A stretch of 36,264 nucleotides of DNA. Origin: a virus (lineage: Duplodnaviria; Heunggongvirae; Uroviricota; Caudoviricetes). Location of the stretch: positions 1 through 36,264 of the IMG/VR virus record IMGVR_UViG_2778261165_000017; one strand, given 5' to 3'. The translations under genes were made by a program, and so were the position numbers. Shown in pieces: positions 1 through 17,242 of the stretch. Every line of letters starts with the position of its first letter. Position 1 is the stretch's first letter. Below the pieces are notes generated by a model. That model saw nothing but the letters and a program-made list of their open reading frames with translations, searched no databases and was not told the origin of the DNA.

Positions 1-1020
1 CTACTTACTGACCACAAGCGGCAAATCCAGTGTTGGGGTGATTTTGGTTTTACGATCGTAAATCAACACCTGATTTTCTGTTTTGTGTCCACTGAAAATT
101 TGTTTGTCGCGACTGCTGCCTTCGTAATCTGAAATCCCTTTGGCTTTTATGTCATGGAAGTTGCACCCAAACGGAACGCCGGCTTTTTGCTCGGCTGCAC
201 GTTTAGCCTGATTCCACCAGTTGTTCAGCGTCTTGGCTATTACCTTCCCGCCTTTGGTTGTGTTGATCACATACTCGCATGTGCCGGAAGATACATTTCG
301 GGCTAACTGGATCGCCGTACGTAATCGTGGAGACCATTCCTTGATTTGTTTAGTGCCGGTCTTGTTTTGCTCAATGTAAATCCCTTTATCCATAATATCC
401 TGCCATTTCAGCTCGAGTACATCACCGAGCCTTGCAGCACAAAGATAGGATATCTCCATTGCAATACGTAACTGTGGAATTGCTTCCGCATATATCGCAG
501 CATACTGTTCATCGGTGATGTAAACAGTACGGGCTTTAAGCGTGAATTTTCTGACTCCTTTGCATGGATTATTTTTCACATACCCACGCTCATACCCCCA
601 TCCGTATACACGGCTCAGACTTGCCAGTTCATGGTTTGCCTGGGTCTTACTCTCGAGTCCTCGTTTATCCATGAAAATTCTTACCTGCTCAATTTTTACA
701 TTATCAGCAAGTACTTTTCCGAATACCGCCAGCAATGCCCTTTGATGTTGCTGATAATCTTTTTGGGTTCGGGGTGCCAGTTCTGTAAATGCAGGGGAGT
801 CCATAAACATGTGCCATAATTTAGCGACGGTCATTATGTTGTGAAGTTTTGCTTTTTCCAGTTCATAATTTTGCCAGACTTTAGCCACGCTGGTTTCCCG
901 CACTCTACCGAGTCCTATAGTTCTTGTGCTTCCTTCGGGTTTCCATACGTAACTGTAACCATTCGATCTAACACGTGGTGGCAGTGCATTATCTTTTTTG
1001 TTTTTTCTTGGTCTTCCCAT
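1..1020 (-). CDS. int: Tyrosine integrase, lambda Int-like (339 aa)
   Basis: ORF translation resembles lambda Int as recalled (N-terminal MGR..R, arm-binding region); stop codon at 3..1; GAGG RBS 9 nt upstream of ATG at 1020; first gene of prophage. Confidence 0.9.
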   Translation of the reverse strand: MGRPRKNKKDNALPPRVRSNGYSYVWKPEGSTRTIGLGRVRETSVAKVWQNYELEKAKLHNIMTVAKLWHMFMDSPAFTELAPRTQKDYQQHQRALLAVFGKVLADNVKIEQVRIFMDKRGLESKTQANHELASLSRVYGWGYERGYVKNNPCKGVRKFTLKARTVYITDEQYAAIYAEAIPQLRIAMEISYLCAARLGDVLELKWQDIMDKGIYIEQNKTGTKQIKEWSPRLRTAIQLARNVSSGTCEYVINTTKGGKVIAKTLNNWWNQAKRAAEQKAGVPFGCNFHDIKAKGISDYEGSSRDKQIFSGHKTENQVLIYDRKTKITPTLDLPLVVSK

Positions 1021-4430: not shown

Positions 4431-4483
4431 GGGCGGCAGAGCAGTCACGGAGTAAAACTGATACCGCCAAACGCCACCAGAAA
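4431..4483 (-). ncRNA. dicF: DicF small RNA (53 nt) with U-tail at 4426..4430
   Basis: Minus-strand sequence TTTCTGGTGGCGTTTGGCGGTATCAGTTTTACTCCGTGACTGCTCTGCCGCCC followed by TTTTT matches DicF as recalled, with one difference near the 5' end. Confidence 0.75.
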
Positions 4484-6776: not shown

Positions 6777-7184
6777 CTACGCTCGGTGCCCTTTCTGGGC
6801 CGCGAGCCATCTTGCAACAGTGCGATCCATTGACTCTTTTTTGTCTTTCATGTCTTTAAGCATTTGTTCCTGATCTTCCTCTGGAAATGCTCCGAATGTT
6901 TGAAGCAGTTCCCTTTGTCTGGGGCCTATTTTCATGGTATCTGGCACCACAACTTGCTCTTCTTCGCTTGGCGGTAACATAAACCAATACGGGGGAAAGC
7001 CCGTTACGTCTGAAAGTTTATCAAGATTAGCAGTCGATGGACTTGTAATGCCATGAACCCACTTTTGGACTGACTGCTGGGCAACACCTATCCTGCGGGC
7101 TAGCTCTGCCTGCTTAAGTCCTGTTTTTTCCAGCACCAATTTTATTCGGTACGTAGTTATTTCAAGGGTGGTCATTCGCTTCAT
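6777..7184 (-). CDS. Prophage repressor, DicA/RacR-like HTH protein (135 aa)
   Basis: N-terminal HTH (LKQAELARRIGVAQQSVQKWVHG); same length and C-terminal pattern as DicA; divergent from the cro-like gene; no S24 peptidase domain; no obvious SD before the ATG. Confidence 0.8.
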   Translation of the reverse strand: MKRMTTLEITTYRIKLVLEKTGLKQAELARRIGVAQQSVQKWVHGITSPSTANLDKLSDVTGFPPYWFMLPPSEEEQVVVPDTMKIGPRQRELLQTFGAFPEEDQEQMLKDMKDKKESMDRTVARWLAAQKGHRA

Positions 7185-7291: not shown

Positions 7292-7558
7292 ATGCATGAA
7301 TGTTTAAAAAAGAAAATTCACAAAAGAGGGTTATCCCAAGCAGGCGTTGCTCGCTTGATTGGATTGCCGCAACAGGTTGTATCTCGATGGGCTAATGGTC
7401 ATCAGGTTCCTGCGTCAAGGGTTCTACAACTGTGTGAGATTATGCAGTGGGAGGTTACTCCTCACGAACTCCGCCCTGATATTTACCCCAATCCAACCGA
7501 CGGCTTGCCTTCTGAGTTTAAGGCTAACACACAACCAGCTGCGGGAGTTGATTCATGA
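7292..7558 (+). CDS. Cro-like HTH regulator (YdaS-type, 88 aa)
   Basis: HTH LSQAGVARLIGLPQQVVSRW; GGGAG RBS 9 nt upstream of ATG 7292; divergent from repressor. Confidence 0.7.
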   Translation: MHECLKKKIHKRGLSQAGVARLIGLPQQVVSRWANGHQVPASRVLQLCEIMQWEVTPHELRPDIYPNPTDGLPSEFKANTQPAAGVDS

Positions 7559-7980
7559 AAATCAAGCATGAACACATCCGCATGGCGATGAATGCCTGGG
7601 CGCATCCGGACGGCGAAAAAGTACCGGCTGCGAAAATTACCAAAGCGTATTTCGAGCTGGGTATGACGTTCCCTGAACTGCATGACGACAGCAAACACAA
7701 CGCGCTTTATCTCAATACCCAGAAAATTTTCCGCTGGGTAGAGAAAGACACCCCTGATGCAGTTGAAAAAATTCAGGCGTTGTTACCAGCGATCGAAAAG
7801 GCAATGCCACCTTTGCTGGTGGCCAGAATGCGCAGCCACAGTTCAGCTTATTTTCGGGAGCTGGTGGAGACGCGGGAGCGACTGGTGAGAGACGCTGATG
7901 ATTTTGTCGCAGTGGCAATCGCCGGTTTCAATCAGATGAACCGTGGTGGCCCGGCAGGAAATTCTGTGGCAGTACATTGA
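7555..7980 (+). CDS. YdaT-like protein (CII-position, 141 aa)
   Basis: Starts MKIKHEHI as YdaT of Rac is recalled to; ATGA overlap with the cro-like gene. Confidence 0.55.
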   Translation: MKIKHEHIRMAMNAWAHPDGEKVPAAKITKAYFELGMTFPELHDDSKHNALYLNTQKIFRWVEKDTPDAVEKIQALLPAIEKAMPPLLVARMRSHSSAYFRELVETRERLVRDADDFVAVAIAGFNQMNRGGPAGNSVAVH

Positions 7981-8051
7981 CTGACAATAGCCATATCGAA
8001 TCGCTTCCGGCAACTCGTGAGTAAAAAGATTCGGTATCAGAAGAGGTGAGT

Positions 8052-9098
8052 ATGGCTAACGCCTGGCTCAGATTATGGCATGACATGCCAAACGATCCTA
8101 AGTGGCGAACAATTTCCAGGGTGTCAGGACAGCCAATCGCAACAGTGATGGCTGTGTATATCCACCTCCTGGTGAGCGCGTCACGAAATGTCACGCGAGG
8201 TCACATTGATGTCACGACAGAAGATTTGGCAAGTGCGCTCGACGTGACAGAAGAGGTAATTGATTCAATTTTGCAGACGATGCAGGGGCGGGTACTTGAT
8301 GGTGATTTAATCACTGGATGGGAAAAACGCCAGGTGCTTAAAGAGGACAACGGCAATATTTCGCAAACCGCAAAATCTCCTGCAGAGCGCAAGAGGGCGC
8401 AGCGAGAGAGGGAAAGAAAGCGGGAACAAAATGGCGATTGTCACGGAGCGTCACGAAATGTCACGCACATGTCACGGCAAGTCACGACAGATAAAGATAC
8501 AGATAAAGATACAGATAAAGAAGATCAAAACACTATGGTCCATGGCGTAAAAAACGCCACGAACCAGGCAGGGGATGTTCAGACCGTCAATCCTGGTCAG
8601 CCAGCAGGCACGACACCGGAAGCCGATTCGGGCGCTGTGCAGCAGGTGATGACCGCAAGGCCGGAGCAATCGCACCCACTGCAGCAGCCTGAAGCCGATT
8701 CCGCCATTCAGCGGGAAGCCGATCGGGTAGTCCCGGAAAAAAACGGGCAGTCTGTGGGAAGAGTGGATTATCCGGATGTGTTCGAACAGGTCTGGCGGGA
8801 GTACCCGTTGCGTGCCGGGGCAAACCCGAAGAAATCCGCTTTCAGTGCCTGGAAGGCCAGATTACGCGAGGGGGTGCCACCAGAGGCCATGCTGGATGGC
8901 GTGAGGCGTTACGCAAGATACCTGGCGGCTACCGGGAAAACGGGAACGGAATTTGTTCAGCGAGCGACGACGTTTTTGGGACCGGACCGGAATTTTGAGA
9001 ACCCCTGGTTGCTCCCGGTAAGCGGCACGAACAACCAGCGTTGTGTGAATCATATTTCTGAACCTGATACAGAAATTCCGCCTGGTTTCAGGGGATAA
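8052..9098 (+). CDS. Replication initiator (O-analogue) with origin iterons inside its coding sequence (348 aa)
   Basis: AAGAGG RBS 5 nt upstream of ATG 8052; position after cro/cII-like genes; gene contains nine GTCACG repeats at helical spacing. Confidence 0.65.
   Translation: MANAWLRLWHDMPNDPKWRTISRVSGQPIATVMAVYIHLLVSASRNVTRGHIDVTTEDLASALDVTEEVIDSILQTMQGRVLDGDLITGWEKRQVLKEDNGNISQTAKSPAERKRAQRERERKREQNGDCHGASRNVTHMSRQVTTDKDTDKDTDKEDQNTMVHGVKNATNQAGDVQTVNPGQPAGTTPEADSGAVQQVMTARPEQSHPLQQPEADSAIQREADRVVPEKNGQSVGRVDYPDVFEQVWREYPLRAGANPKKSAFSAWKARLREGVPPEAMLDGVRRYARYLAATGKTGTEFVQRATTFLGPDRNFENPWLLPVSGTNNQRCVNHISEPDTEIPPGFRG
8178..8216. repeat. Iteron cluster 1: GTCACG/GTCACA at 8180, 8190, 8200, 8211
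   Basis: Direct repeats at 10-11 bp spacing counted in sequence. Confidence 0.7.
8440..8522. repeat. Iteron cluster 2 (GTCACG at 8440, 8450, 8460, 8471, 8481) followed by a 12-bp tandem repeat ACAGATAAAGAT x3 (8487..8522)
   Basis: Direct repeats at 10-11 bp spacing; exact 19-bp duplicate GCGTCACGAAATGTCACGC at 8178..8196 and 8448..8466; A+T-rich tandem repeat immediately downstream. Confidence 0.7.
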
Positions 9099-9138: not shown

Positions 9139-9561
9139 GTGGTAAAAGTTTTTACACAAGAAGAGCGAGAAAAAATTAAAGGGCAGGTTGTTGAGCTAGT
9201 ACGCCGGAGTGGGCGCGAGACGCTACGGCAACTGGAATCCAAGACAGGTGCGACAAGATATCTGATCAGCGTTCTCGCCAGAGAGCTGGTTGCCAGTGGC
9301 GATATATACAACTCTGGTTACGGGTTATTCCCGTCTGAACAGGCGCGTAAGGACTGGCAAAATGCCCGTAAAAAGCTCTCAAGGGCAAAGCTGAAGAAAC
9401 CATCTGCGGTTGATCCGGACCTTATCTGGTCATTACCAGACGGAGAAATACGTCGCTACGACAGGCGTATGAACATAATCTGTCGCGAGTGCCGGAGAAG
9501 TGAAGTTATGCAGCGCGTGCTGGCGTTCTATCAGGGGAATTTTCAGGAGGTGATGCTGTGA
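9139..9561 (+). CDS. Hypothetical protein (140 aa)
   Basis: AAGGAGG RBS 4-5 nt before GTG start; translationally coupled to the next gene. Confidence 0.6.
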   Translation: MVKVFTQEEREKIKGQVVELVRRSGRETLRQLESKTGATRYLISVLARELVASGDIYNSGYGLFPSEQARKDWQNARKKLSRAKLKKPSAVDPDLIWSLPDGEIRRYDRRMNIICRECRRSEVMQRVLAFYQGNFQEVML

Positions 9562-10046
9562 GTACACCGGCAACCATTCTTGATATGTGCTGTGGCAGCC
9601 GTATGTTCTGGTTCGATAAGAATGACGACCGGGCGATATTTAGCGATATCAGAAAGGAAGAGCATACATTGTGCGATGGGCGACGCCTGATTATTAGCCC
9701 TGACCTGATAGCAGATTTTCGTGCATTACCATTTGCAGACGCAACGTTTCCGGTTGTTGTATTCGACCCTCCGCATCTTGAGCGTATTGGTGATAATGCC
9801 TGGATGGGAAAGAAATATGGACGGCTGAATAAAGATACCTGGCGTGATGATTTGCGGCAGGGATTTAAAGAAGCCTTTCGTGTGTTGTGGCCACATGGCG
9901 TTCTGATTTTTAAATGGAATGAAACGCAAATATCTGTCCGCCAGATATTGGCACTGACCGACGTGAAACCAATCATCAGCCAGCGCACTGGTAAGAACGA
10001 TAAAACACATTGGATTATTTTTATGAAGGAGGCAACCAGTGGGTAA
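9558..10046 (+). CDS. Phage Dam-type N6-adenine DNA methyltransferase (162 aa)
   Basis: DPPH motif (DPPY/F/H class) and N-terminal CCGSRMF SAM-binding-like motif; AGGAGG RBS 7 nt before GTG start. Confidence 0.65.
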   Translation: MSTPATILDMCCGSRMFWFDKNDDRAIFSDIRKEEHTLCDGRRLIISPDLIADFRALPFADATFPVVVFDPPHLERIGDNAWMGKKYGRLNKDTWRDDLRQGFKEAFRVLWPHGVLIFKWNETQISVRQILALTDVKPIISQRTGKNDKTHWIIFMKEATSG

Positions 10047-10909: not shown

Positions 10910-11078
10910 TTTTGGTTCAACTAAATACAACGTCAGTTTTGAAGAATGGCATGAACTGTTAATGGACTATGCAGAGTTACGCGGTGGAAGTGCTGCTGAT
11001 GCTGAAGCATGGCGTGATGATTATGAAGCAGGGAAAACTCCGGTCGAAGCATATTGTGATGAGTGGGGCGATGAATGA
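10902..11078 (+). CDS. Hypothetical protein (58 aa)
   Basis: Hand-translated MADFGSTKYNVSFEEWHELLMDYAELRGG...; ATGA overlap with next gene at 11075. Confidence 0.4.
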   Translation: MADFGSTKYNVSFEEWHELLMDYAELRGGSAADAEAWRDDYEAGKTPVEAYCDEWGDE

Positions 11079-11623
11079 GCGGGATTAACTATCAGATGCT
11101 GCGGGATAAGGCAGAGAACGCAACTAAAGGAGGCTACATCGTAGGGCATACATCTGTTAACCAGCACGGTAATTTAACAGGAGTTTTTGTTTGTCAAAAA
11201 TGGAAAGGAGAACCAGGTGGCGTGATTGCAGAATGTCATGTTAACTGCCTGGTTGAAACAGATGCTCAGGCTTATGCAAACGCAGAATTCATAGCAGAGG
11301 CTAGCCCGGCTACCGTGCTGGCACTACTGGATGAACGGGAAAGGAACCAGCAATACATCAAAAGCCGCGATCAGGAGAACGAGGATATTGCGCTAACGGT
11401 AGGGAAGCTGCGCGTTGAGCTTGAAGCAGAAAAACAGCGGGCAAAAGTTCTATTTATGGAAAATGCTCGGCTTAAGTCAGGCATAGCCGGTCTGATACAC
11501 CTCGGTATTCGATATGCAGATGTTGAGGTCATGAGAATTGCTGGAGATGCCCAGCTTTCTACCCCATGCACTGACAGCATCATAAACAGCATTGCAACAG
11601 GCATTCGCATCAAAGGAGAGTGA
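11075..11623 (+). CDS. Ead/Ea22-like protein (182 aa)
   Basis: Motif ATVLALLDERERNQQYIKSRDQENEDIALTVGKLRVELE recalled from Ead/Ea22-family prophage proteins. Confidence 0.6.
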   Translation: MSGINYQMLRDKAENATKGGYIVGHTSVNQHGNLTGVFVCQKWKGEPGGVIAECHVNCLVETDAQAYANAEFIAEASPATVLALLDERERNQQYIKSRDQENEDIALTVGKLRVELEAEKQRAKVLFMENARLKSGIAGLIHLGIRYADVEVMRIAGDAQLSTPCTDSIINSIATGIRIKGE

Positions 11624-11624
11624 T

Positions 11625-11834
11625 ATGGCTATCGCTGCAAGTTACACCATGCATCTCTATTGTGATTGCCTCCAGTGTACAGATGGCAAATATAAGTCGC
11701 CAGACTTCGGTGAGTATATAGGTACGTCATGGGCTGGCTGTGCAAAAGAGGCGCGCAAGGATGGCTGGCGAATAAGCAAAGACAAAACGCGTGCTTTTTC
11801 ACCCGGGCATAAAGTTTTGAGGATTAACAAATGA
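11625..11834 (+). CDS. Hypothetical Cys-rich protein (69 aa)
   Basis: AAAGGAGAG RBS before ATG 11625; ATGA overlap with next gene. Confidence 0.5.
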   Translation: MAIAASYTMHLYCDCLQCTDGKYKSPDFGEYIGTSWAGCAKEARKDGWRISKDKTRAFSPGHKVLRINK

Positions 11835-12640
11835 CAACATTTACCGACGACGACAAGAAACTAATTAAAGAAATCAAAGAGCGTATCAGCAGCCCGGAGG
11901 TTCGAGACGATATTGAGCGCCGGGCTTATGAAATAGCGTTAGCCTCGCTGGAAGCAGAGCCGGTGGCATGGCTGCATTCAGACAATGGCTTAGGTATTCC
12001 GGCAATAACGAGGAGTAAAAACATTGCTGACAGTTGGTTATCAAAGAGCTGGTATGTTCAGCCGCTATATATAGCCAAGCCAGTGCCGGTGGTGCCAGAT
12101 GCTCGTCCGTCTTTAAATAATGGCATAGTCGGCTTTGATGAAGGCTGGAACGCTTGCCGCGCCGCCATGATTCATGCCGGAAACTTTCGGGAAAACTTGA
12201 ATTCGTCAACCAATAATTTTCGGGAAATTGCGGAAACGTCAATCAACTCTCCGGTAGTTCCTGGTGAGGTGTTGTCCGCAATCCGGGAGGTTGCCAGGGT
12301 TCGTGCCGATTTCGATGATTTTGACGGTGACAGGCGAGGTATCGGTGATTGTCTGAATGAGTCTGAGCAAGAGCTTATCGTTACCATTAACAAATATGCC
12401 AGTCAGATTGCAGCAAAGCCGCCGCAGGAGGAGAAGAGTGGGAACGCTGACTGTACCGCCACTTCTGGTAAAACTGACAATCCACAAGCATCCGGAAAAC
12501 AGGTTGATGAATTAACCATGTTGGTTAAGCGATTAGCCAGTTCGTTAAAAAGCGTCAATAAATCAAGTAAGCTGCCTGATAAGGCGATGGATTATCTTTT
12601 GCGGAACGGACTGGTAAGTGTGGAGGGGAGGGGACGATGA
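11831..12640 (+). CDS. Hypothetical phage protein (269 aa)
   Basis: Long ORF translationally coupled to neighbours; no family assigned. Confidence 0.6.
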   Translation: MTTFTDDDKKLIKEIKERISSPEVRDDIERRAYEIALASLEAEPVAWLHSDNGLGIPAITRSKNIADSWLSKSWYVQPLYIAKPVPVVPDARPSLNNGIVGFDEGWNACRAAMIHAGNFRENLNSSTNNFREIAETSINSPVVPGEVLSAIREVARVRADFDDFDGDRRGIGDCLNESEQELIVTINKYASQIAAKPPQEEKSGNADCTATSGKTDNPQASGKQVDELTMLVKRLASSLKSVNKSSKLPDKAMDYLLRNGLVSVEGRGR

Positions 12641-12720
12641 CCTGGCCTGAGGCATTTACCACGGTAGGGATTGCAATGGCCGTGGCGTTGGTGGTGTATT
12701 CGATTTGCCGCTGGGGGTAA
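12637..12720 (+). CDS. Possible 27-aa membrane peptide
   Basis: ATGA-coupled to the upstream gene; single hydrophobic helix (MTWPEAFTTVGIAMAVALVVYSICRWG). Confidence 0.3.
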   Translation: MTWPEAFTTVGIAMAVALVVYSICRWG

Positions 12721-12882
12721 GGTATTAAAGAATGCCCCCGCACACATAAGTTGAGCGTCTGAGGTGTGGGGATAGGGAGTTAGTTAAATTGTTATACAAC
12801 AATATCTGATTTTGTATTGAAGCAAGGAAGAGGTTGCCACATATTGAATCATGCACGTGTACGTCAAATGTGGGAGGTCATC

Positions 12883-12972
12883 GTGCTGGTTCTGAAATGT
12901 GCGCTGGCTATTGCGGCTGTAATGGCAATTTATTGTCTTGTTATCGTTCTTATGGATCACCTTTCTGATTGA
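12883..12972 (+). CDS. Possible 29-aa hydrophobic peptide
   Basis: GGGAGG RBS 6 nt before GTG; VLVLKCALAIAAVMAIYCLVIVLMDHLSD; 210 nt upstream of hok. Confidence 0.3.
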   Translation: MLVLKCALAIAAVMAIYCLVIVLMDHLSD

Positions 12973-13127
12973 TTTTATATTGGCGAGGTGACGGGAGTTA
13001 AGTAGAATTGCTGCGGGTGCTTGAGGCTGTCTGCCTCAGGCATGAACACCAAAAGGCAGATAGAGAAAAGCCCCAGTTAACATTACGCGTCCTGCAAGAC
13101 GCTTAACATTAATCTGAGGCCATATCT

Positions 13128-13340
13128 ATGCTCTACACACGTAGGTTAGCCTCTTACGTGCCGAAAGGCAAGGAGAAGCAGGCTATGAAGCAGCAAAAGG
13201 CGATGCTAATCGCCCTGATCGTCATCTGTTTAACCGTCATAGTGACGGCACTGGTAACGAGGAAAGACCTCTGCGAGGTACGAATCCGAACCGGCCAGAC
13301 GGAGGTCGCTGTCTTCACAGCTTACGAACCTGAGGAGTAA
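13128..13340 (+). CDS. mok: Mok-like in-frame extended reading frame (70 aa)
   Basis: In-frame N-terminal extension of hok, like MokC (69 aa) as recalled. Confidence 0.5.
   Translation: MLYTRRLASYVPKGKEKQAMKQQKAMLIALIVICLTVIVTALVTRKDLCEVRIRTGQTEVAVFTAYEPEE
13185..13340 (+). CDS. hok: Hok/Gef-family type I toxin (51 aa)
   Basis: MKQQKAMLIALIVICLTVIVTALVTRKDLCEVRIRTGQTEVAVFTAYEPEE is near-identical to HokC/Gef as recalled; AAGGAG RBS. Confidence 0.85.
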   Translation: MKQQKAMLIALIVICLTVIVTALVTRKDLCEVRIRTGQTEVAVFTAYEPEE

Positions 13341-13410
13341 GAGACCCGGCGGGGGGAGAAATCCCTCGCCACCGCTGATGTGTCAGGCATCCTCAACGCA
13401 CCCGCACTTA

Positions 13411-13437
13411 ACCCGCTTCGGCGGGTTTTGTTTTTTC
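13411..13437 (+). terminator. Intrinsic terminator after hok
   Basis: Hairpin ACCCGC-TTCG-GCGGGT followed by TTTTGTTTTTT. Confidence 0.7.
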
Positions 13438-13788: not shown

Positions 13789-14844
13789 GTGCGGGTATTA
13801 CTTCGACCTGTTCTGGTACCGGAACTCGGGCTGGTGATCGTTAAGCCGGGCCGTGAATCCATGCCGGTATTCCACAATACCCGGGTACTGGTGGAGCCGG
13901 AACCGAAAAGCATGCGTAATCTGCCGTCCGGGGTCGTTCCTGCCGTTCGCCAGCCGCTGGCGGAGGATAAATCATTACTGCCATTTTTCAGCGACGAACG
14001 AGTGATTCGTGCTGCTGGTGGCGCTGGCGCATTGTCTGACTGGTTACTGCGCCATGTTAAATCCTGCCAGTGGCCACACGGTGATTATCACCACAGTGAA
14101 ACCGTCATTCACCGTTATGGTACCGGCGCAATGGTGTTGTGCTGGCACTGCGACAACCAGCTGCGCGACCAGACCTCCGAATCACTCGGGCAACTTGCTC
14201 ACCAAAACCTGTCTGCATGGATGATTGACGTCATACGCCATGCAATGAATGGCTCGCAGGAACGGGAATTATCGCTGGCTGAATTATCCTGGTGGGCGGT
14301 CCGCAATCAGGTGGCGGACGCGCTACCGGAAGCGGTATTACGTCGTTCGCTGGGGTTGCGTGCGGAAAAAATCCGCTCAATGTACCGTGAAAGCGACATC
14401 GTACCGGGAGAGCAGACCGCCACCAGCATACTGAAGCAGCGCACAAAAAATCTTGCGCCGCTGCCTCACGCCCACCAGCAAAACCCGCCACAGGAAAAGA
14501 CGGTGGTCAGCATTGCCGTTGATCCCGAGTCACCGGCTCAGTATCTCCAGCGCCAGAAATCACAACGGGAAGAGATGCCTGTATACACGCGCTGGGTAAA
14601 AACGCAGAAATGCATGACGTGTGGCAATCAGGCAGATGATCCGCATCACATCATTGGTCATGGACTGGGAGGGATGGGAACAAAGGCTGATGATTTGTTT
14701 GTTATTCCGCTGTGCCGTAAATGCCATAGCGAACTACACGCCGGGGTAAAAGATTTTGAAGAAAAACACGGCAGCCAGCTGTTGTTGCTGATTCGTTTTT
14801 TAATGCACGCGAGAAATTCGGGTGTTCTGAAGTGGAAAGCATAA
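13789..14844 (+). CDS. DUF968-family protein (YdfU-like, 351 aa) with C-terminal HNH-like Cys/His motif
   Basis: GGAGG RBS before GTG; C-terminal CMTCGN...HHIIGHG...CRKCHSELH; same position as ydfU upstream of Q in Qin. Confidence 0.7.
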   Translation: MRVLLRPVLVPELGLVIVKPGRESMPVFHNTRVLVEPEPKSMRNLPSGVVPAVRQPLAEDKSLLPFFSDERVIRAAGGAGALSDWLLRHVKSCQWPHGDYHHSETVIHRYGTGAMVLCWHCDNQLRDQTSESLGQLAHQNLSAWMIDVIRHAMNGSQERELSLAELSWWAVRNQVADALPEAVLRRSLGLRAEKIRSMYRESDIVPGEQTATSILKQRTKNLAPLPHAHQQNPPQEKTVVSIAVDPESPAQYLQRQKSQREEMPVYTRWVKTQKCMTCGNQADDPHHIIGHGLGGMGTKADDLFVIPLCRKCHSELHAGVKDFEEKHGSQLLLLIRFLMHARNSGVLKWKA

Positions 14845-15210
14845 ATGACTGAACGCATAGAATTTGTTTTGCCTTACCCGCCAACGGTGAACACTTACTG
14901 GCGTCGTCGTGGCAGCACATATTTTGTATCAAAAGCCGGGGAGCGTTATCGCCGGGCAGTGGCGCTTATTGTTCGCCAGCAGCGGCTGAAATTAAGCCTG
15001 TCCGGAAGGCTGGCAATAAAAATTATTGCAGAGCCACCGGATAAGCGCCGCCGCGACCTGGACAATATCCTGAAGGCACCACTGGATGCGCTGACGCATG
15101 CCGGACTTCTCATAGACGACGAGCAGTTTGATGAAATCAATATTGTGCGCGGACTGCCTGTTCCTGGTGGTCGGCTGGGGATAAAAATCACAGAACTGGA
15201 GTGCGCATGA
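14845..15210 (+). CDS. rusA: Holliday junction resolvase RusA (121 aa)
   Basis: Motifs YPPTVNTYW, DKRRRDLDN, GGRLGIKITE align with RusA as recalled. Confidence 0.85.
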   Translation: MTERIEFVLPYPPTVNTYWRRRGSTYFVSKAGERYRRAVALIVRQQRLKLSLSGRLAIKIIAEPPDKRRRDLDNILKAPLDALTHAGLLIDDEQFDEINIVRGLPVPGGRLGIKITELECA

Positions 15211-15896
15211 ATAACCAGTATTTACAGTTTGTGCGTGAGCAGCTCATTATCGCTACCGCTGATTTGAGTGGGGCAACAAAAGGTCAGCTTGAAGCCTGGC
15301 AGGAGAATGCCATGTTTGATACAGGGCGTTACAGGCGTAAAAAAATCCGGTACCGCGATGAAGTGACTGGAAGAATGATAACGCGGGATAGTCCACCGAT
15401 ACCGGGAAAACAATCACTGGCGAAAGGCTCATCAATTGCTCTGGTAAGTCAGGTTGAGTTTTCGACATCATCATGGCGACGGGCAGTTCTGTCTCTTGAA
15501 GAACTTCATAAAGCCTGGTTGTTGTGGTGTTACAGCGGGAGTATTTATTGGGAATATCAGATCGCGATAACACAGTGGGCGTGGAATGAATTTAATGCTC
15601 AATCCGGTACCAGAAAAATTGCAGGGAAAACGCAGGAACGCCTGAAAAAATTAATCTGGCTGGCGGCGCAGGCAGTAAAAGCAGAACTTTTTGGTGGGGA
15701 AGGTTATGAATACCAGGAGCTGGCATTACTGGCGGGAGTGACAACTAAAAACTGGTCAAAAACATTTACTCGTCACTGGGTTGCAATGAAACACATTTTT
15801 CACCGACTGGATAGTGAGGCTTTATTGTTTGTAATGAGAACACGTTCAAAACAAAAGACGGCATTTTCAAAGCAAAGTGTTGCAAAAGTAGATTGA
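15207..15896 (+). CDS. Late-gene antiterminator Q-like protein (229 aa)
   Basis: ATGA overlap with rusA; lies immediately upstream of a strong promoter plus terminator and the lysis cassette; family not sequence-verified. Confidence 0.6.
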   Translation: MNNQYLQFVREQLIIATADLSGATKGQLEAWQENAMFDTGRYRRKKIRYRDEVTGRMITRDSPPIPGKQSLAKGSSIALVSQVEFSTSSWRRAVLSLEELHKAWLLWCYSGSIYWEYQIAITQWAWNEFNAQSGTRKIAGKTQERLKKLIWLAAQAVKAELFGGEGYEYQELALLAGVTTKNWSKTFTRHWVAMKHIFHRLDSEALLFVMRTRSKQKTAFSKQSVAKVD

Positions 15897-16105: not shown

Positions 16106-16181
16106 GGCCCTTTAGCTCAGTGGTGAGAGCGAGCGACTCATAATCGCCAGGTCGCTGGTTCAAATCCAGCAAGGGCCACCA
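16106..16181 (+). tRNA. tRNA with CAT anticodon, Ile2 (lysidine)-like / Met-type
   Basis: Cloverleaf folded by hand; 7-bp acceptor stem GGCCCTT/AAGGGCC; anticodon loop CTCATAA; closely resembles E. coli ileX as recalled; CCA encoded. Confidence 0.85.
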
Positions 16182-16182
16182 A

Positions 16183-16259
16183 CCGCCACTAGCTCATCAG
16201 GAAAGAGCGTCAACCCTTTAAGTTGAGTGTGCGAGGTTCGAGTCCCCGGTGGCGGTCCA
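16183..16259 (+). tRNA. tRNA-like gene with atypical anticodon loop CCTTTAA (anticodon TTT if canonical, C at position 33)
   Basis: Perfect 7-bp acceptor stem CCGCCAC/GTGGCGG, perfect 5-bp anticodon stem, T-loop TTCGAGT with one A-C mismatch in the T stem; CCA encoded. Confidence 0.55.
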
Positions 16260-16261
16260 GT

Positions 16262-16337
<76 letters not shown>

Positions 16338-16340
16338 TAT

Positions 16341-16415
<75 letters not shown>

Positions 16416-16927: not shown

Positions 16928-17242
16928 ATGACTCAAAACTATGAACTGATTGTGAAAGGGATCCGCAATTTTGAGAATAAAGTTACGGTAACTTTAGCGT
17001 TACGGGACAAAAAACGCTTTGACGGTGAAATTTTTGACCTGGACATCTCGCTGGACCGTGTTGAAGGTGCCGCGCTGGAGTTTTATGAGGCAGCAGCCAG
17101 AAGGAGCATCAGACAGGTCTTCCTGGATGTTGCTGCCGGGTTATGTGAAGGGGACGAGCTGTTGCCAGAAACGCGCCCCTGTTCAGAGGCGCGGTATACC
17201 ATAAAAATTAACAGTTCTGATAACTCGATTACAGGTTGTTAG
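16928..17242 (+). CDS. Hypothetical protein between holin and endolysin (104 aa)
   Basis: ATG 4 nt after the holin stop; GGGGAGAG upstream; no family recognised. Confidence 0.55.
   Translation: MTQNYELIVKGIRNFENKVTVTLALRDKKRFDGEIFDLDISLDRVEGAALEFYEAAARRSIRQVFLDVAAGLCEGDELLPETRPCSEARYTIKINSSDNSITGC

What the first reader, a model, noticed from the sequence alone, without database searches (positions are those of the whole stretch)
13128..13437. hok/mok-type type I toxin locus inside the nin-like region
The 51-aa ORF is near-identical to HokC/Gef as I recall it. It has an in-frame upstream extension like mokC and a strong intrinsic terminator 70 nt downstream. A Sok-like antisense RNA is expected on the opposite strand across the mok start (about 13100..13190), but I cannot define its promoter from sequence alone.
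Basis: partly seen in the sequence, partly recalled or inferred. Interest (0 to 1): 0.5.

Follow-up and report, generated by a model that had tools for sequence, protein, structure and literature searches.

The report
Intact hokD-type hok/mok/sok prophage locus
This is a complete copy of a well-known small toxin gene (Hok) with its antisense RNA antidote, sitting in a lambda-like prophage; it is real, apparently intact, and ordinary, and a close relative in phage Sp5 has already been tested in the laboratory.

Summary
A 51-aa Hok ORF lies at 13185..13340 (Pfam HOK_GEF, E=1e-23). An in-frame 70-aa mok-like extension starts at ATG 13128. An intrinsic terminator lies at 13410..13437.

The toxin is identical (51/51) to E. 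coli K-12 HokD/RelF. It is 92% identical to HokW of Stx phage Sp5 and only 82% identical to HokC/Gef.

The locus is larger than reported. It has its own promoter (12980..13008) and an mRNA of about 423 nt starting at 13015. All RNA elements of the family are present:
- a 5'-3' tac/fbi pairing, kept in 38/38 homologs with compensatory changes;
- a hairpin that sequesters the mok Shine-Dalgarno;
- an antisense Sok-like gene on the minus strand. Its promoter is at 13171..13143. The RNA runs from 13136 to about 13060-13066, as a 5' tail, a hairpin and a U-rich tail.

The Sok promoter is identical to that of sokW. In Sp5, mutating this -10 element abolished antitoxin activity (PMC8621323).

The locus lies between the replication genes and DUF968-RusA-Q, co-oriented with them.

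Verdict: an already known hokD/hokW-type type I toxin-antitoxin locus, here complete. Expression was not tested. Interest is low.

The parts
12980..13008 (+). hok mRNA promoter: -35 TTGGCG, 17-nt spacer, -10 TAGAAT
   Evidence: Consensus scan, 9/12 matches. A -10-like hexamer (TAGAAT/TATAAT/TACAAT/TATATT) sits at the same distance upstream of GGG[T/C]GCTTGAGG in the homologs aligned.
13015..13437 (+). Predicted full-length hok mRNA (about 423 nt), from the conserved GGGUGCUUGAGG 5' end to the terminator U-run
   Evidence: Rfam RF01794 model position 1 aligns at 13015. Fold: -170.6 kcal/mol, z=-6.8 against shuffles. The ends are inferred, not mapped.
13015..13026 (+). tac element (5' end of the mRNA). 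It pairs with fbi in the full-length RNA. Alternative partners are 13034..13042 (nascent or metastable hairpin) and ucb.
   Evidence: MFE and centroid pair 13015-13026 with 13391-13403. The duplex is kept in 38/38 homologs. Position 4 covaries UA<->CG with both partners.
13034..13042 (+). Downstream partner of tac in the nascent-transcript (metastable) hairpin
   Evidence: Helix of columns 4-12 with 20-28: 96.2% of cells paired and 3 pairs with two-sided changes. It is the MFE partner of tac in RNAs cut at 13374-13380.
13068..13076 (+). ucb / anti-Shine-Dalgarno (AAGCCCCAG). It pairs with the mok SD in the full-length fold and with tac in one truncated fold.
   Evidence: (pairs 13070:13120, 13071:13119, 13072:13118, 13074:13116, 13075:13115, with AU<->GC in 11 sequences).
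13116..13119 (+). mok Shine-Dalgarno GAGG, 8 nt upstream of the mok ATG
   Evidence: GAGG is invariant in 38 homologs. It is sequestered in the full-length fold.
13128..13340 (+). mok-like reading frame (70 codons, here in frame with hok)
   Evidence: The ATG is kept in 36/38 homologs. The frame runs across the hok start in frame 0 or +1, which indicates selection for translation through the region rather than for a Mok peptide.
13143..13171 (-). Sok promoter: -35 TTGCCT (13171..13166), 17-nt spacer, -10 TAACCT (13148..13143)
   Evidence: Read. The 30 nt 13172..13143 are identical to oligo YO-597 of the Sp5 hokW-sokW study, in which mutating the sokW promoter around its -10 element abolished antitoxin activity. 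The substituted hexamer (TAACCT to GAGCCG) is my deduction from mutagenic primers YO-421/422. The -35 bases are invariant in 38 homologs. The generic consensus scan does not detect it because the -10 matches only 3/6.
13060..13136 (-). Predicted Sok-like antisense RNA: 5' single-stranded tail covering the mok ATG, a long hairpin, then UUUUCUCUAU. The 3' end is uncertain (13060-13068).
   Evidence: The K-12 SokC annotation maps to 13136->13060. Fold: -31.9 kcal/mol, z=-4.8. The minus-strand transcript is more stable than the sense strand in 36/36 homologs, mean difference -10.7 kcal/mol. SokW is described as having a 71-nt sequence complementary to the hokW 5' UTR.
13149..13158 (+). dcb-like box GCCUCUUAC. 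It is complementary to the mok SD region. In the full-length fold it pairs with GUAAGAG at the hok stop codon (13337..13343).
   Evidence: RNAalifold pairs columns 141-147 with 328-334. The pairs are essentially invariant, so there is no covariation evidence. The assignment as dcb is by position, following PMC9841398.
13171..13175 (+). hok Shine-Dalgarno AGGAG
   Evidence: Sequence; conserved AAGGAG.
13185..13340 (+). hok toxin gene (51 aa), HokD type
   Evidence: (51/51 to K-12 HokD).
13318..13332 (+). Small hairpin CAG-CUUACGAAC-CUG presenting the Tyr47 codon UAC (13323..13325) in a UACG context. Candidate TadA A-to-I editing site (Tyr->Cys).
   Evidence: The stem covaries (columns 309:323 CG<->UA in 14 sequences; 310:322 GC<->AU in 14). 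Editing of hokC/D/E mRNAs is stated in bioRxiv 10.1101/2025.08.07.668861. Editing at this copy is inferred.
13345..13374 (+). 3' UTR hairpin (likely the protective 3' stem-loop of the processed mRNA). It carries one extra G relative to all 37 homologs.
   Evidence: columns 341-349 with 361-368; AU<->GC in 7 sequences. The role is taken by analogy with R1.
13391..13403 (+). fbi element CCUCAACGCACCC, complementary to tac with one bulged C
13410..13437 (+). Intrinsic terminator of the hok mRNA
   Evidence: 7-bp stem, 5 G-C pairs, followed by TTTTGTTTTTT.

Best explanation
Window 12980..13437 is an intact hok/mok/sok-type type I toxin-antitoxin locus of the HokD/HokW subtype. It is carried in the nin-like region of a lambdoid (Rac/Sp5-like) prophage.

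Proposed mechanism, by homology with plasmid R1 hok/sok and Sp5 hokW-sokW:
1. A stable mRNA of about 423 nt is made from the promoter at 12980..13008.
2. Its 5' end (tac, 13015..13026) pairs with fbi (13391..13403). The mok Shine-Dalgarno (13116..13119) is held in a hairpin with ucb (13070..13076). The full-length RNA is therefore neither translated nor bound by antisense RNA.
3. Slow 3' trimming removes fbi. tac then changes partner, mok becomes translatable, and hok translation is coupled to it.
4. A short, unstable antisense RNA is made from the minus-strand promoter at 13171..13143 (RNA 13136 -> about 13060-13066). It pairs with the mok translation-initiation region, blocks translation and marks the duplex for RNase III.
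5. When Sok is lost, the 51-aa Hok inserts into the inner membrane and kills or lyses the cell.

Shown here: every sequence and structure element is present and conserved. Inferred: transcription of both RNAs, 3' processing, toxicity, and the biological role.

By analogy with Sp5, the most likely role is to accelerate lysis and phage release after prophage induction.
For: **Toxin**
- Pfam HOK_GEF full length, E=1.2e-23.
- 51/51 identity to K-12 HokD, which served as a toxic control.
- 47/51 identity to HokW.

**mRNA leader**
- Rfam RF01794, 117.8 bits.
- mRNA identity is 92.8% to the Sp5-type locus and 98.7% to a PGAP-annotated hokD locus.

**tac/fbi**
- Predicted in both MFE and centroid, z=-6.8.
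- A 12-bp duplex is retained in 38/38 homologs from Escherichia, Kluyvera, Photorhabdus, Pantoea and Citrobacter, with compensatory changes.
- Position 4 covaries with two alternative partners.

**Other elements**
- The ucb/mok-SD hairpin covaries.
- The mok ATG is kept in 36/38 homologs, whatever the frame.

**Sok**
- K-12 SokC maps to 13136->13060.
- It has a tail, hairpin and U-tail architecture, z=-4.8.
- The antisense strand folds better than the sense strand in 36/36 homologs.
- The promoter is identical to the Sp5 sokW promoter, whose promoter mutation around the -10 element unmasked toxicity.

**Context**
- The locus is co-oriented with the replication genes and Q in 7/7 annotated relatives.
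Against: - There are no expression data for this copy.
- The generic sigma-70 scan does not call the Sok promoter, because the -10 TAACCT matches only 3/6.
- Thermodynamic folds of 3'-truncated RNAs do not consistently give the tac/ucb open form. It appears only for the end point 13388.
- A target hairpin I proposed around the mok ATG is not conserved (61% paired).
- Chromosomal hok loci tested by others did not mediate post-segregational killing (summarised). An intact sequence therefore does not prove activity.
- One extra G in the 3' UTR hairpin is unique to this copy, and its effect is unknown.
- The lysis-helper role rests on a single study of a 92%-identical homolog, and the effect there was about 2-fold.
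Confidence: 0.9

Rival explanations
1. The locus is intact in sequence but physiologically silent. It would be a selfish or neutral passenger of the prophage that is permanently repressed, like the chromosomal hok loci that fail to mediate post-segregational killing.
For: Chromosomal hokA, hokB and hokC loci were not activated by rifampicin and did not give PSK (summarised). Many copies in E. coli are visibly decayed: K-12 hokD lacks the whole leader, K-12 hokC has IS186 in place of fbi, and one close relative has an IS directly upstream of hokD.
Against: In this copy every regulatory element is intact and under visible structural constraint. The Sp5 homolog produces HokW on induction and affects lysis timing and phage yield.
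Confidence: 0.2
2. Same molecular system, different role. It stabilises the prophage (post-segregational killing of cured cells), or it acts as an abortive-infection defence against superinfecting phages, rather than helping lysis.
For: R1 hok/sok mediates PSK and reduces T4 plating (cited). hok genes are about 4-fold enriched in prophages. Some phage records call the gene 'phage maintenance protein'.
Against: There is no hit in PADLOC defence models. No enrichment next to defence systems was reported. The only direct test in a lambdoid prophage found a positive effect on release of the phage's own progeny.
Confidence: 0.3
3. The antitoxin RNA is on the + strand at 13015..13190, as a literal reading of the Rfam 'sok' hit would suggest.
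For: Rfam RF01794 'sok antitoxin' matches the + strand.
Against: In K-12 the same model hits the strand of hokC/mokC (L002 502..654, minus), whereas the annotated SokC RNA is on the opposite strand (553..611, plus). The model consensus begins with the tac sequence and ends at the hok AUG. It therefore describes the hok mRNA leader.
Confidence: 0.02
4. Because mok is in frame with hok here, the main product is a 70-aa N-terminally extended Hok (a Mok-Hok fusion) rather than the 51-aa peptide.
For: The in-frame arrangement occurs here and in 27 of 38 homologs.
Against: In 8 homologs mok is in the +1 frame, and in 2 it stops at the hok start, with the toxin ORF unchanged. The frame is therefore not conserved and the extension is poorly conserved. 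hok keeps its own AGGAG and ATG.
Confidence: 0.1

Closest known systems
hokW-sokW of Sakai prophage 5 (Sp5) / 933W-type Stx phages (Takada et al. 2021, PMC8621323)
   Same: Same position (nin-like region of a lambdoid prophage) and same organisation. Hok is 47/51 identical. The mRNA is 92.8% identical over about 390 nt. The Sok promoter (-35 through -10) is identical to oligo YO-597. The Sok hairpin is the same long form.
   Different: The last residues of Hok differ (FTAYEPEE here, FVDYESEK in HokW). The Sok 5' tail and its target differ at 6 of the first 16 nt (GUAGAGCAUAGAUAUG against GUUCAGCAUGGAUUGA), so cross-regulation is not assured. The sequence downstream of fbi, including the terminator, differs. 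No experiments exist for this copy.
hokD (relF) of E. coli K-12 cryptic prophage Qin
   Same: The toxin is identical, 51/51. The 3' UTR, fbi and terminator are homologous (row L010). It is also prophage-borne.
   Different: The K-12 copy has relBE immediately upstream and lacks the promoter, tac, ucb, mok start and Sok gene. The window carries the complete ancestral-type locus.
hokC-mokC-sokC (gef) of E. coli K-12
   Same: Same architecture. mok is in frame with hok. The annotated SokC aligns to 13136->13060.
   Different: Only 82% protein identity. The intact hokC-type loci of other Escherichia (A2 rows L018-L025) are about 72% identical at the mRNA level. The Sok hairpin is 18 nt shorter. 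The K-12 copy has IS186 next to it and has lost fbi. It is chromosomal, not in a prophage.
hok/mok/sok (parB) of plasmid R1
   Same: This is the reference mechanism: tac/fbi closure, ucb/mok-SD sequestration, 3' processing, mok-hok coupling, Sok antisense and RNase III (PMC9841398). All corresponding sequence elements are found here.
   Different: It is a distant sequence relative (HokW-Hok 44% identity; not aligned here). In R1 mok is in a different frame from hok (from memory). It is plasmid-borne, with a PSK role.

Membership tests
hok/mok/sok type I toxin-antitoxin family | Toxin ORF of about 50 aa belonging to the Hok/Gef protein family | tested here: met
   Pfam PF01848, 82.9 bits against a cut-off of 22, full model coverage. 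PHROG 251. 51/51 identity to HokD.
hok/mok/sok type I toxin-antitoxin family | Overlapping upstream reading frame (mok) with its own SD, through which hok translation is coupled | tested here: met
   ATG 13128 is preceded by GAGG, and the 70-codon frame runs across the hok start. It is conserved in 36/38 homologs in frame 0 or +1. The coupling itself was not tested.
hok/mok/sok type I toxin-antitoxin family | Long-range 5'-3' pairing (tac/fbi) that closes the full-length mRNA | tested here: met
   Predicted in MFE and centroid. The duplex is present in 38/38 homologs with UA<->CG and GC<->AU compensations.
hok/mok/sok type I toxin-antitoxin family | Sequestration of the mok SD by an upstream complementary box, and alternative tac partners (metastable hairpin, tac/ucb) | tested here: inconclusive
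   The ucb/SD hairpin and the metastable hairpin are both supported by covariation. The tac/ucb open form appears in only one of five truncated-RNA folds, and its pairs are invariant.
hok/mok/sok type I toxin-antitoxin family | Cis-encoded antisense RNA (Sok) with its own promoter, complementary to the mok translation-initiation region | tested here: met
   This applies at sequence level only. The homolog of annotated SokC is present. The promoter is identical to the functionally tested sokW promoter. The hairpin and U-tail are present, and the minus strand is more stable in 36/36 homologs.
hok/mok/sok type I toxin-antitoxin family | Sok RNA is actually transcribed, is unstable, and neutralises hok | not testable with these tools
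   Needs RNA-seq or Northern blots and genetics. This has been shown only for the Sp5 homolog.
hok/mok/sok type I toxin-antitoxin family | 3' exonucleolytic processing activates the mRNA | not testable with these tools
   The 3' hairpin (13345..13374) and the removable fbi/terminator tail are present. Processing was not observed, and it is unresolved even for hokW.
hok/mok/sok type I toxin-antitoxin family | Hok is toxic (inner-membrane damage) | not testable with these tools
   [quoted passage not shown] HokW localises to the inner membrane.
HokD/HokW subtype carried in the nin region of lambdoid prophages | Location between the replication genes and Q, co-oriented with the early-right operon | tested here: met
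   Window: replication initiator 8046..9098, hok 13185..13340, DUF968, RusA, Q 15201..15896, all on the + strand. The same order and orientation occur in 7/7 annotated relatives.

The most novel reading that the evidence does not exclude
Activation of this locus may be hard-wired to prophage induction by its placement.

hok is co-oriented with the early-right operon, and no strong terminator lies upstream of it. Antiterminated read-through from the replication genes would therefore cross the locus in the sense direction. That could have three effects:
- It could occlude the convergent, weak Sok promoter by transcriptional interference.
- It could produce hok transcripts with foreign 5' ends that cannot form the tac/fbi closure.
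- It could make the hok terminator act as a tR2-like barrier in front of Q.

This would explain the unexplained RecA-dependent loss of sokW RNA and the appearance of HokW about 1 h before endolysin in Sp5.
Probability: 0.2. Interest if true: 0.4.

Novelty: already known. Interest (0 to 1): 0.1.

Why it matters
It matters little for discovery. The family, this subtype, its prophage location and even the function of a 92%-identical copy have all been published.

It has some practical value for annotation:
- Pipelines label only the hokD CDS and omit mok, Sok and the about 170-nt leader.
- The Rfam 'sok' model reports the sense strand, so a naive reading places the antitoxin on the wrong strand.
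- This copy shows what a complete HokD-type locus looks like. K-12 hokD, the reference copy, is a truncated remnant behind relBE.

It would also be a convenient substrate for testing whether prophage induction activates Hok through read-through transcription.

Tried and rejected
1. **Rfam hit read as the antitoxin on the + strand.** Rejected. In K-12 the model hits the hokC strand, opposite to the annotated SokC.

2. **A conserved target hairpin around the mok ATG** (13126-13130 with 13140-13144). Only 61% of cells pair across 38 homologs, so it is not supported.

3. **Reproducing the closed-to-open switch by folding 3'-truncated RNAs.** The results depend on the chosen end point: tac pairs with ucb only for the end 13388, and with the local hairpin for 13374-13380. 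This is inconclusive.

4. **Cognate against non-cognate tac/fbi duplex energies as a specificity test.** This was uninformative, because G-U tolerance and the stronger Photorhabdus 3' partners dominate the ranks.

5. **Generic promoter scan for Sok on the minus strand.** It found nothing at the right place. The promoter was defined by homology instead.

6. **PADLOC defence models.** No hit for Hok or its immediate neighbours.

7. **YUNR U-turn motif in the Sok target loop.** I considered checking it, but I could not fix the loop register, and my knowledge of its position in R1 is from memory. It is left untested.

Full report
**What is in the sequence**

The + strand carries a 51-codon ORF at 13185..13340. 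The ORF list also gives a 70-codon ORF from ATG 13128 that ends at the same stop codon, so the upstream extension is in frame. The 51-aa product matches Pfam HOK_GEF over the whole model (82.9 bits against a cut-off of 22, E=1.2e-23) and PHROG 251 'MokW-like host killing'. A G+C-rich hairpin at 13410..13427 followed by TTTTGTTTTTT starts 69-70 nt after the stop codon.

**Which Hok it is**

The peptide is 51/51 identical to K-12 HokD (RelF). It is 47/51 identical to the Hok of a 933W/Sp5-type Stx2 phage. That phage sequence matches the primers of the hokW-sokW study, so it represents HokW. Identity to K-12 HokC/Gef is 41/50. 'Near-identical to HokC' is therefore imprecise: this is the HokD/HokW subtype.

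The 501-nt region has megablast matches in 4739 of 5426 complete E. coli genomes, where PGAP labels the CDS hokD. It also matches 79 phage records, where it is called MokW, HokD, 'host killer' or 'gef: phage maintenance protein'. Peptides identical to the window's occur in E. albertii, E. coli and Shigella flexneri.

**The locus is larger than reported**

Rfam RF01794 matches 13015..13190 on the + strand with 117.8 bits. The model consensus begins GGGUGCUUGA and ends at the hok AUG. In K-12 the same model hits the strand of hokC/mokC, not the strand of the annotated SokC RNA. The Rfam family called 'sok' therefore describes the hok mRNA leader. Here it marks the mRNA 5' end at about 13015.

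A promoter-like site (TTGGCG, 17 nt, TAGAAT; 12980..13008) sits at the right distance. A -10-like hexamer is kept at that position in homologs. The predicted full-length mRNA is 13015..13437, about 423 nt.

**RNA architecture**

The full-length RNA folds at -170.6 kcal/mol (z=-6.8). In both the MFE and the centroid structure, the first 12 nt (tac, 13015..13026) pair with 13391..13403 (fbi, CCUCAACGCACCC, with one bulged C).

I collected 53 related loci from one representative genome per species. I aligned 38 distinct, complete mRNAs from Escherichia, Kluyvera, Photorhabdus, Pantoea, Citrobacter and relatives, at 59-99% identity to the window. The results were:

- **tac/fbi.** A 12-bp 5'-3' duplex is retained in all 38, with compensatory changes. 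Position 4 is U-A in 25 sequences and C-G in 11. Positions 11 and 12 change G-C to A-U in Citrobacter and Kluyvera.
- **Metastable hairpin.** Position 4 also covaries with a second partner 24 nt downstream (U-A in 25, C-G in 12). This lies in a local hairpin (13018..13026 with 13034..13042) that is 96% paired across the set. It corresponds to the metastable nascent-transcript hairpin described for R1.
- **mok SD sequestration.** The mok Shine-Dalgarno GAGG (13116..13119) is paired with GCCCCAG (13070..13076, the ucb/anti-SD), with AU<->GC exchanges in 11 sequences.
- **hok start region.** It pairs with 13309..13317, with covariation (columns 181:304).
- **Box at the stop codon.** CUCUUAC (13152..13158) pairs with GUAAGAG at the stop codon. 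These pairs are essentially invariant, so they carry no covariation information.

Folding 3'-truncated RNAs gave a tac/ucb stem for one end point (13388) and the local hairpin for others. All three literature partners of tac exist in the sequence, but thermodynamic prediction does not settle which one wins after processing.

**mok**

The ATG aligned with 13128 is kept in 36 of 38 homologs. The reading frame continues across the hok start in frame 0 in 27 of them and in frame +1 in 8. In 2 it stops exactly at the hok start. What is conserved is translation through the hok initiation region, not a peptide. That fits translational coupling.

**Sok**

By alignment, the annotated K-12 SokC (16952..17010) maps to the window's minus strand from 13136 (5' end) to 13060. 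An 18-nt insertion lengthens the hairpin. This 77-nt RNA folds into a 5' single-stranded tail, a long hairpin and UUUUCUCUAU (-31.9 kcal/mol, z=-4.8). The tail contains the complement of the mok AUG.

In 36 of 36 distinct homologs the minus-strand transcript of this segment is more stable than the sense strand (mean difference -10.7 kcal/mol). All of them begin with G and end in a U-rich tail.

Upstream on the minus strand lie TTGCCT (13171..13166), a 17-nt spacer and TAACCT (13148..13143), 7 nt before 13136. The generic scan misses this promoter because the -10 matches only 3/6. However, the 30 nt covering both hexamers are identical to oligo YO-597 of the Sp5 study. In that study, mutations in the sokW promoter around its -10 element unmasked HokW toxicity, and sokW supplied in trans partly rescued it. 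The substituted hexamer (TAACCT to GAGCCG) is my reading of mutagenic primers YO-421/422.

The promoter is at 13143..13171, and the RNA body runs leftwards to about 13060-13066.

**Context**

The window is a mosaic lambdoid prophage. Its features, in order:

| Coordinates | Strand | Feature |
|---|---|---|
| 6777..7184 | - | HTH repressor |
| 7555..7980 | + | YdaT-like protein |
| 8046..9098 | + | replication initiator |
| 9139..9561 | + | DUF977 |
| 9558..10046 | + | orphan methyltransferase |
| 11075..11623 | + | Ead/Ea22 |
| 13185..13340 | + | hok |
| 13789..14844 | + | DUF968/HNH |
| 14845..15210 | + | RusA |
| 15201..15896 | + | antiterminator Q |
| 16106..16415 | + | four tRNAs |

'Nin-like region' is a fair description. 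In seven annotated relatives, hok lies in the same place and the same orientation relative to the replication genes and Q.

**Mechanism and role**

The best-supported mechanism is the canonical hok/mok/sok one, with every sequence element present and constrained.

The most likely role comes from Sp5:
- sokW RNA disappears after mitomycin C treatment.
- HokW appears in a RecA-dependent way about 1 h before endolysin.
- Deletion delays growth arrest by about 40 min and halves released phage.

Prophage stabilisation and abortive infection remain possible roles. PADLOC has no model that hits Hok.

**Comparison and novelty**

This is a member of a known family and of a known, experimentally studied subtype. 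It is routinely annotated (as CDS only). Enrichment of hok in prophages has been reported. Nothing here departs from the known design.

The only non-trivial idea is unproven. The conserved co-orientation with the early-right operon could couple Hok activation to induction, through read-through and interference with the convergent Sok promoter. That would explain the unexplained loss of sokW RNA in Sp5.

**Verdict**

The feature is real, intact in sequence and already known. Interest is 0.1.

Noticed in passing
window 13015..13190 (+); L002 502..654 (-): The Rfam RF01794 'sok antitoxin' model is built in the sense orientation of the hok mRNA leader. In K-12 it hits the hokC/mokC strand, while the annotated SokC RNA is on the opposite strand. 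Strand calls from this family can therefore mislabel the antitoxin.
   Followed up: yes
window 13318..13332 (+): The Hok Tyr47 codon UAC (13323..13325) sits in a UACG context, in the loop of a small covarying hairpin (CAG/CUG here, UGG/CCA in Photorhabdus). This resembles the TadA A-to-I editing sites reported for hokB/C/D/E, which recode Tyr to Cys.
   Followed up: partly
window 4431..4482 (-): A DicF small RNA (Rfam RF00039, 76.4 bits) lies in the early-left part of the prophage.
   Followed up: no
window 16106..16415 (+): A cluster of four tRNA genes lies just downstream of Q. ARAGORN calls them Met(CAT), Lys, Thr and Gly. PGAP calls the first one tRNA-Ile in a related prophage.
   Followed up: no
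window 12637..12720 (+) and 12817..12972 (+): Two small hydrophobic ORFs lie between the 269-aa ORF and the hok promoter. One is 27 aa (MTWPEAF..., with its ATG overlapping the stop codon of 11831..12640). The other is 51 aa with a TTG start. Neither has a PHROG hit, and neither is annotated in the relatives inspected.
   Followed up: no
window 13348..13357 (+): The run GGCGGGGGGAG in the 3' UTR hairpin has one more G than all 37 aligned homologs. The effect on the protective 3' stem-loop is unknown, and it could be a sequencing error in a homopolymer.
   Followed up: no
window 13410..13437 (+): The hok terminator is co-oriented with the early-right operon and lies between the replication genes and Q. 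It could also act as a tR2-like barrier that makes Q expression depend on antitermination.
   Followed up: no
L010 and L031 (loci): The K-12-type arrangement is not confined to E. coli. In it, relBE replaces the hok leader, with no tac, mok or Sok. A Kluyvera sp. contig shows the same upstream sequence.
   Followed up: no
L060 4019..5107 (E. coli Z1323CEC0007): In the closest large-scale relative of this prophage region, an IS element (integrase core domain protein) sits about 70 nt upstream of the hokD ATG, inside what would be the leader. This is another example of IS inactivation of hok loci.
   Followed up: no
window 13122..13136 (Sok 5' tail target): The Sok 5' tail and its target form the most variable part of the locus among close relatives (6 of 16 nt differ from sokW). 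This could limit cross-talk among the several hok copies per genome (median of 2 matching places per E. coli genome, up to 10).
   Followed up: partly
window 9558..10046 (+): An orphan DNA methyltransferase (PADLOC oMTase/MTase_II, PHROG 954) lies in the early region of the prophage.
   Followed up: no
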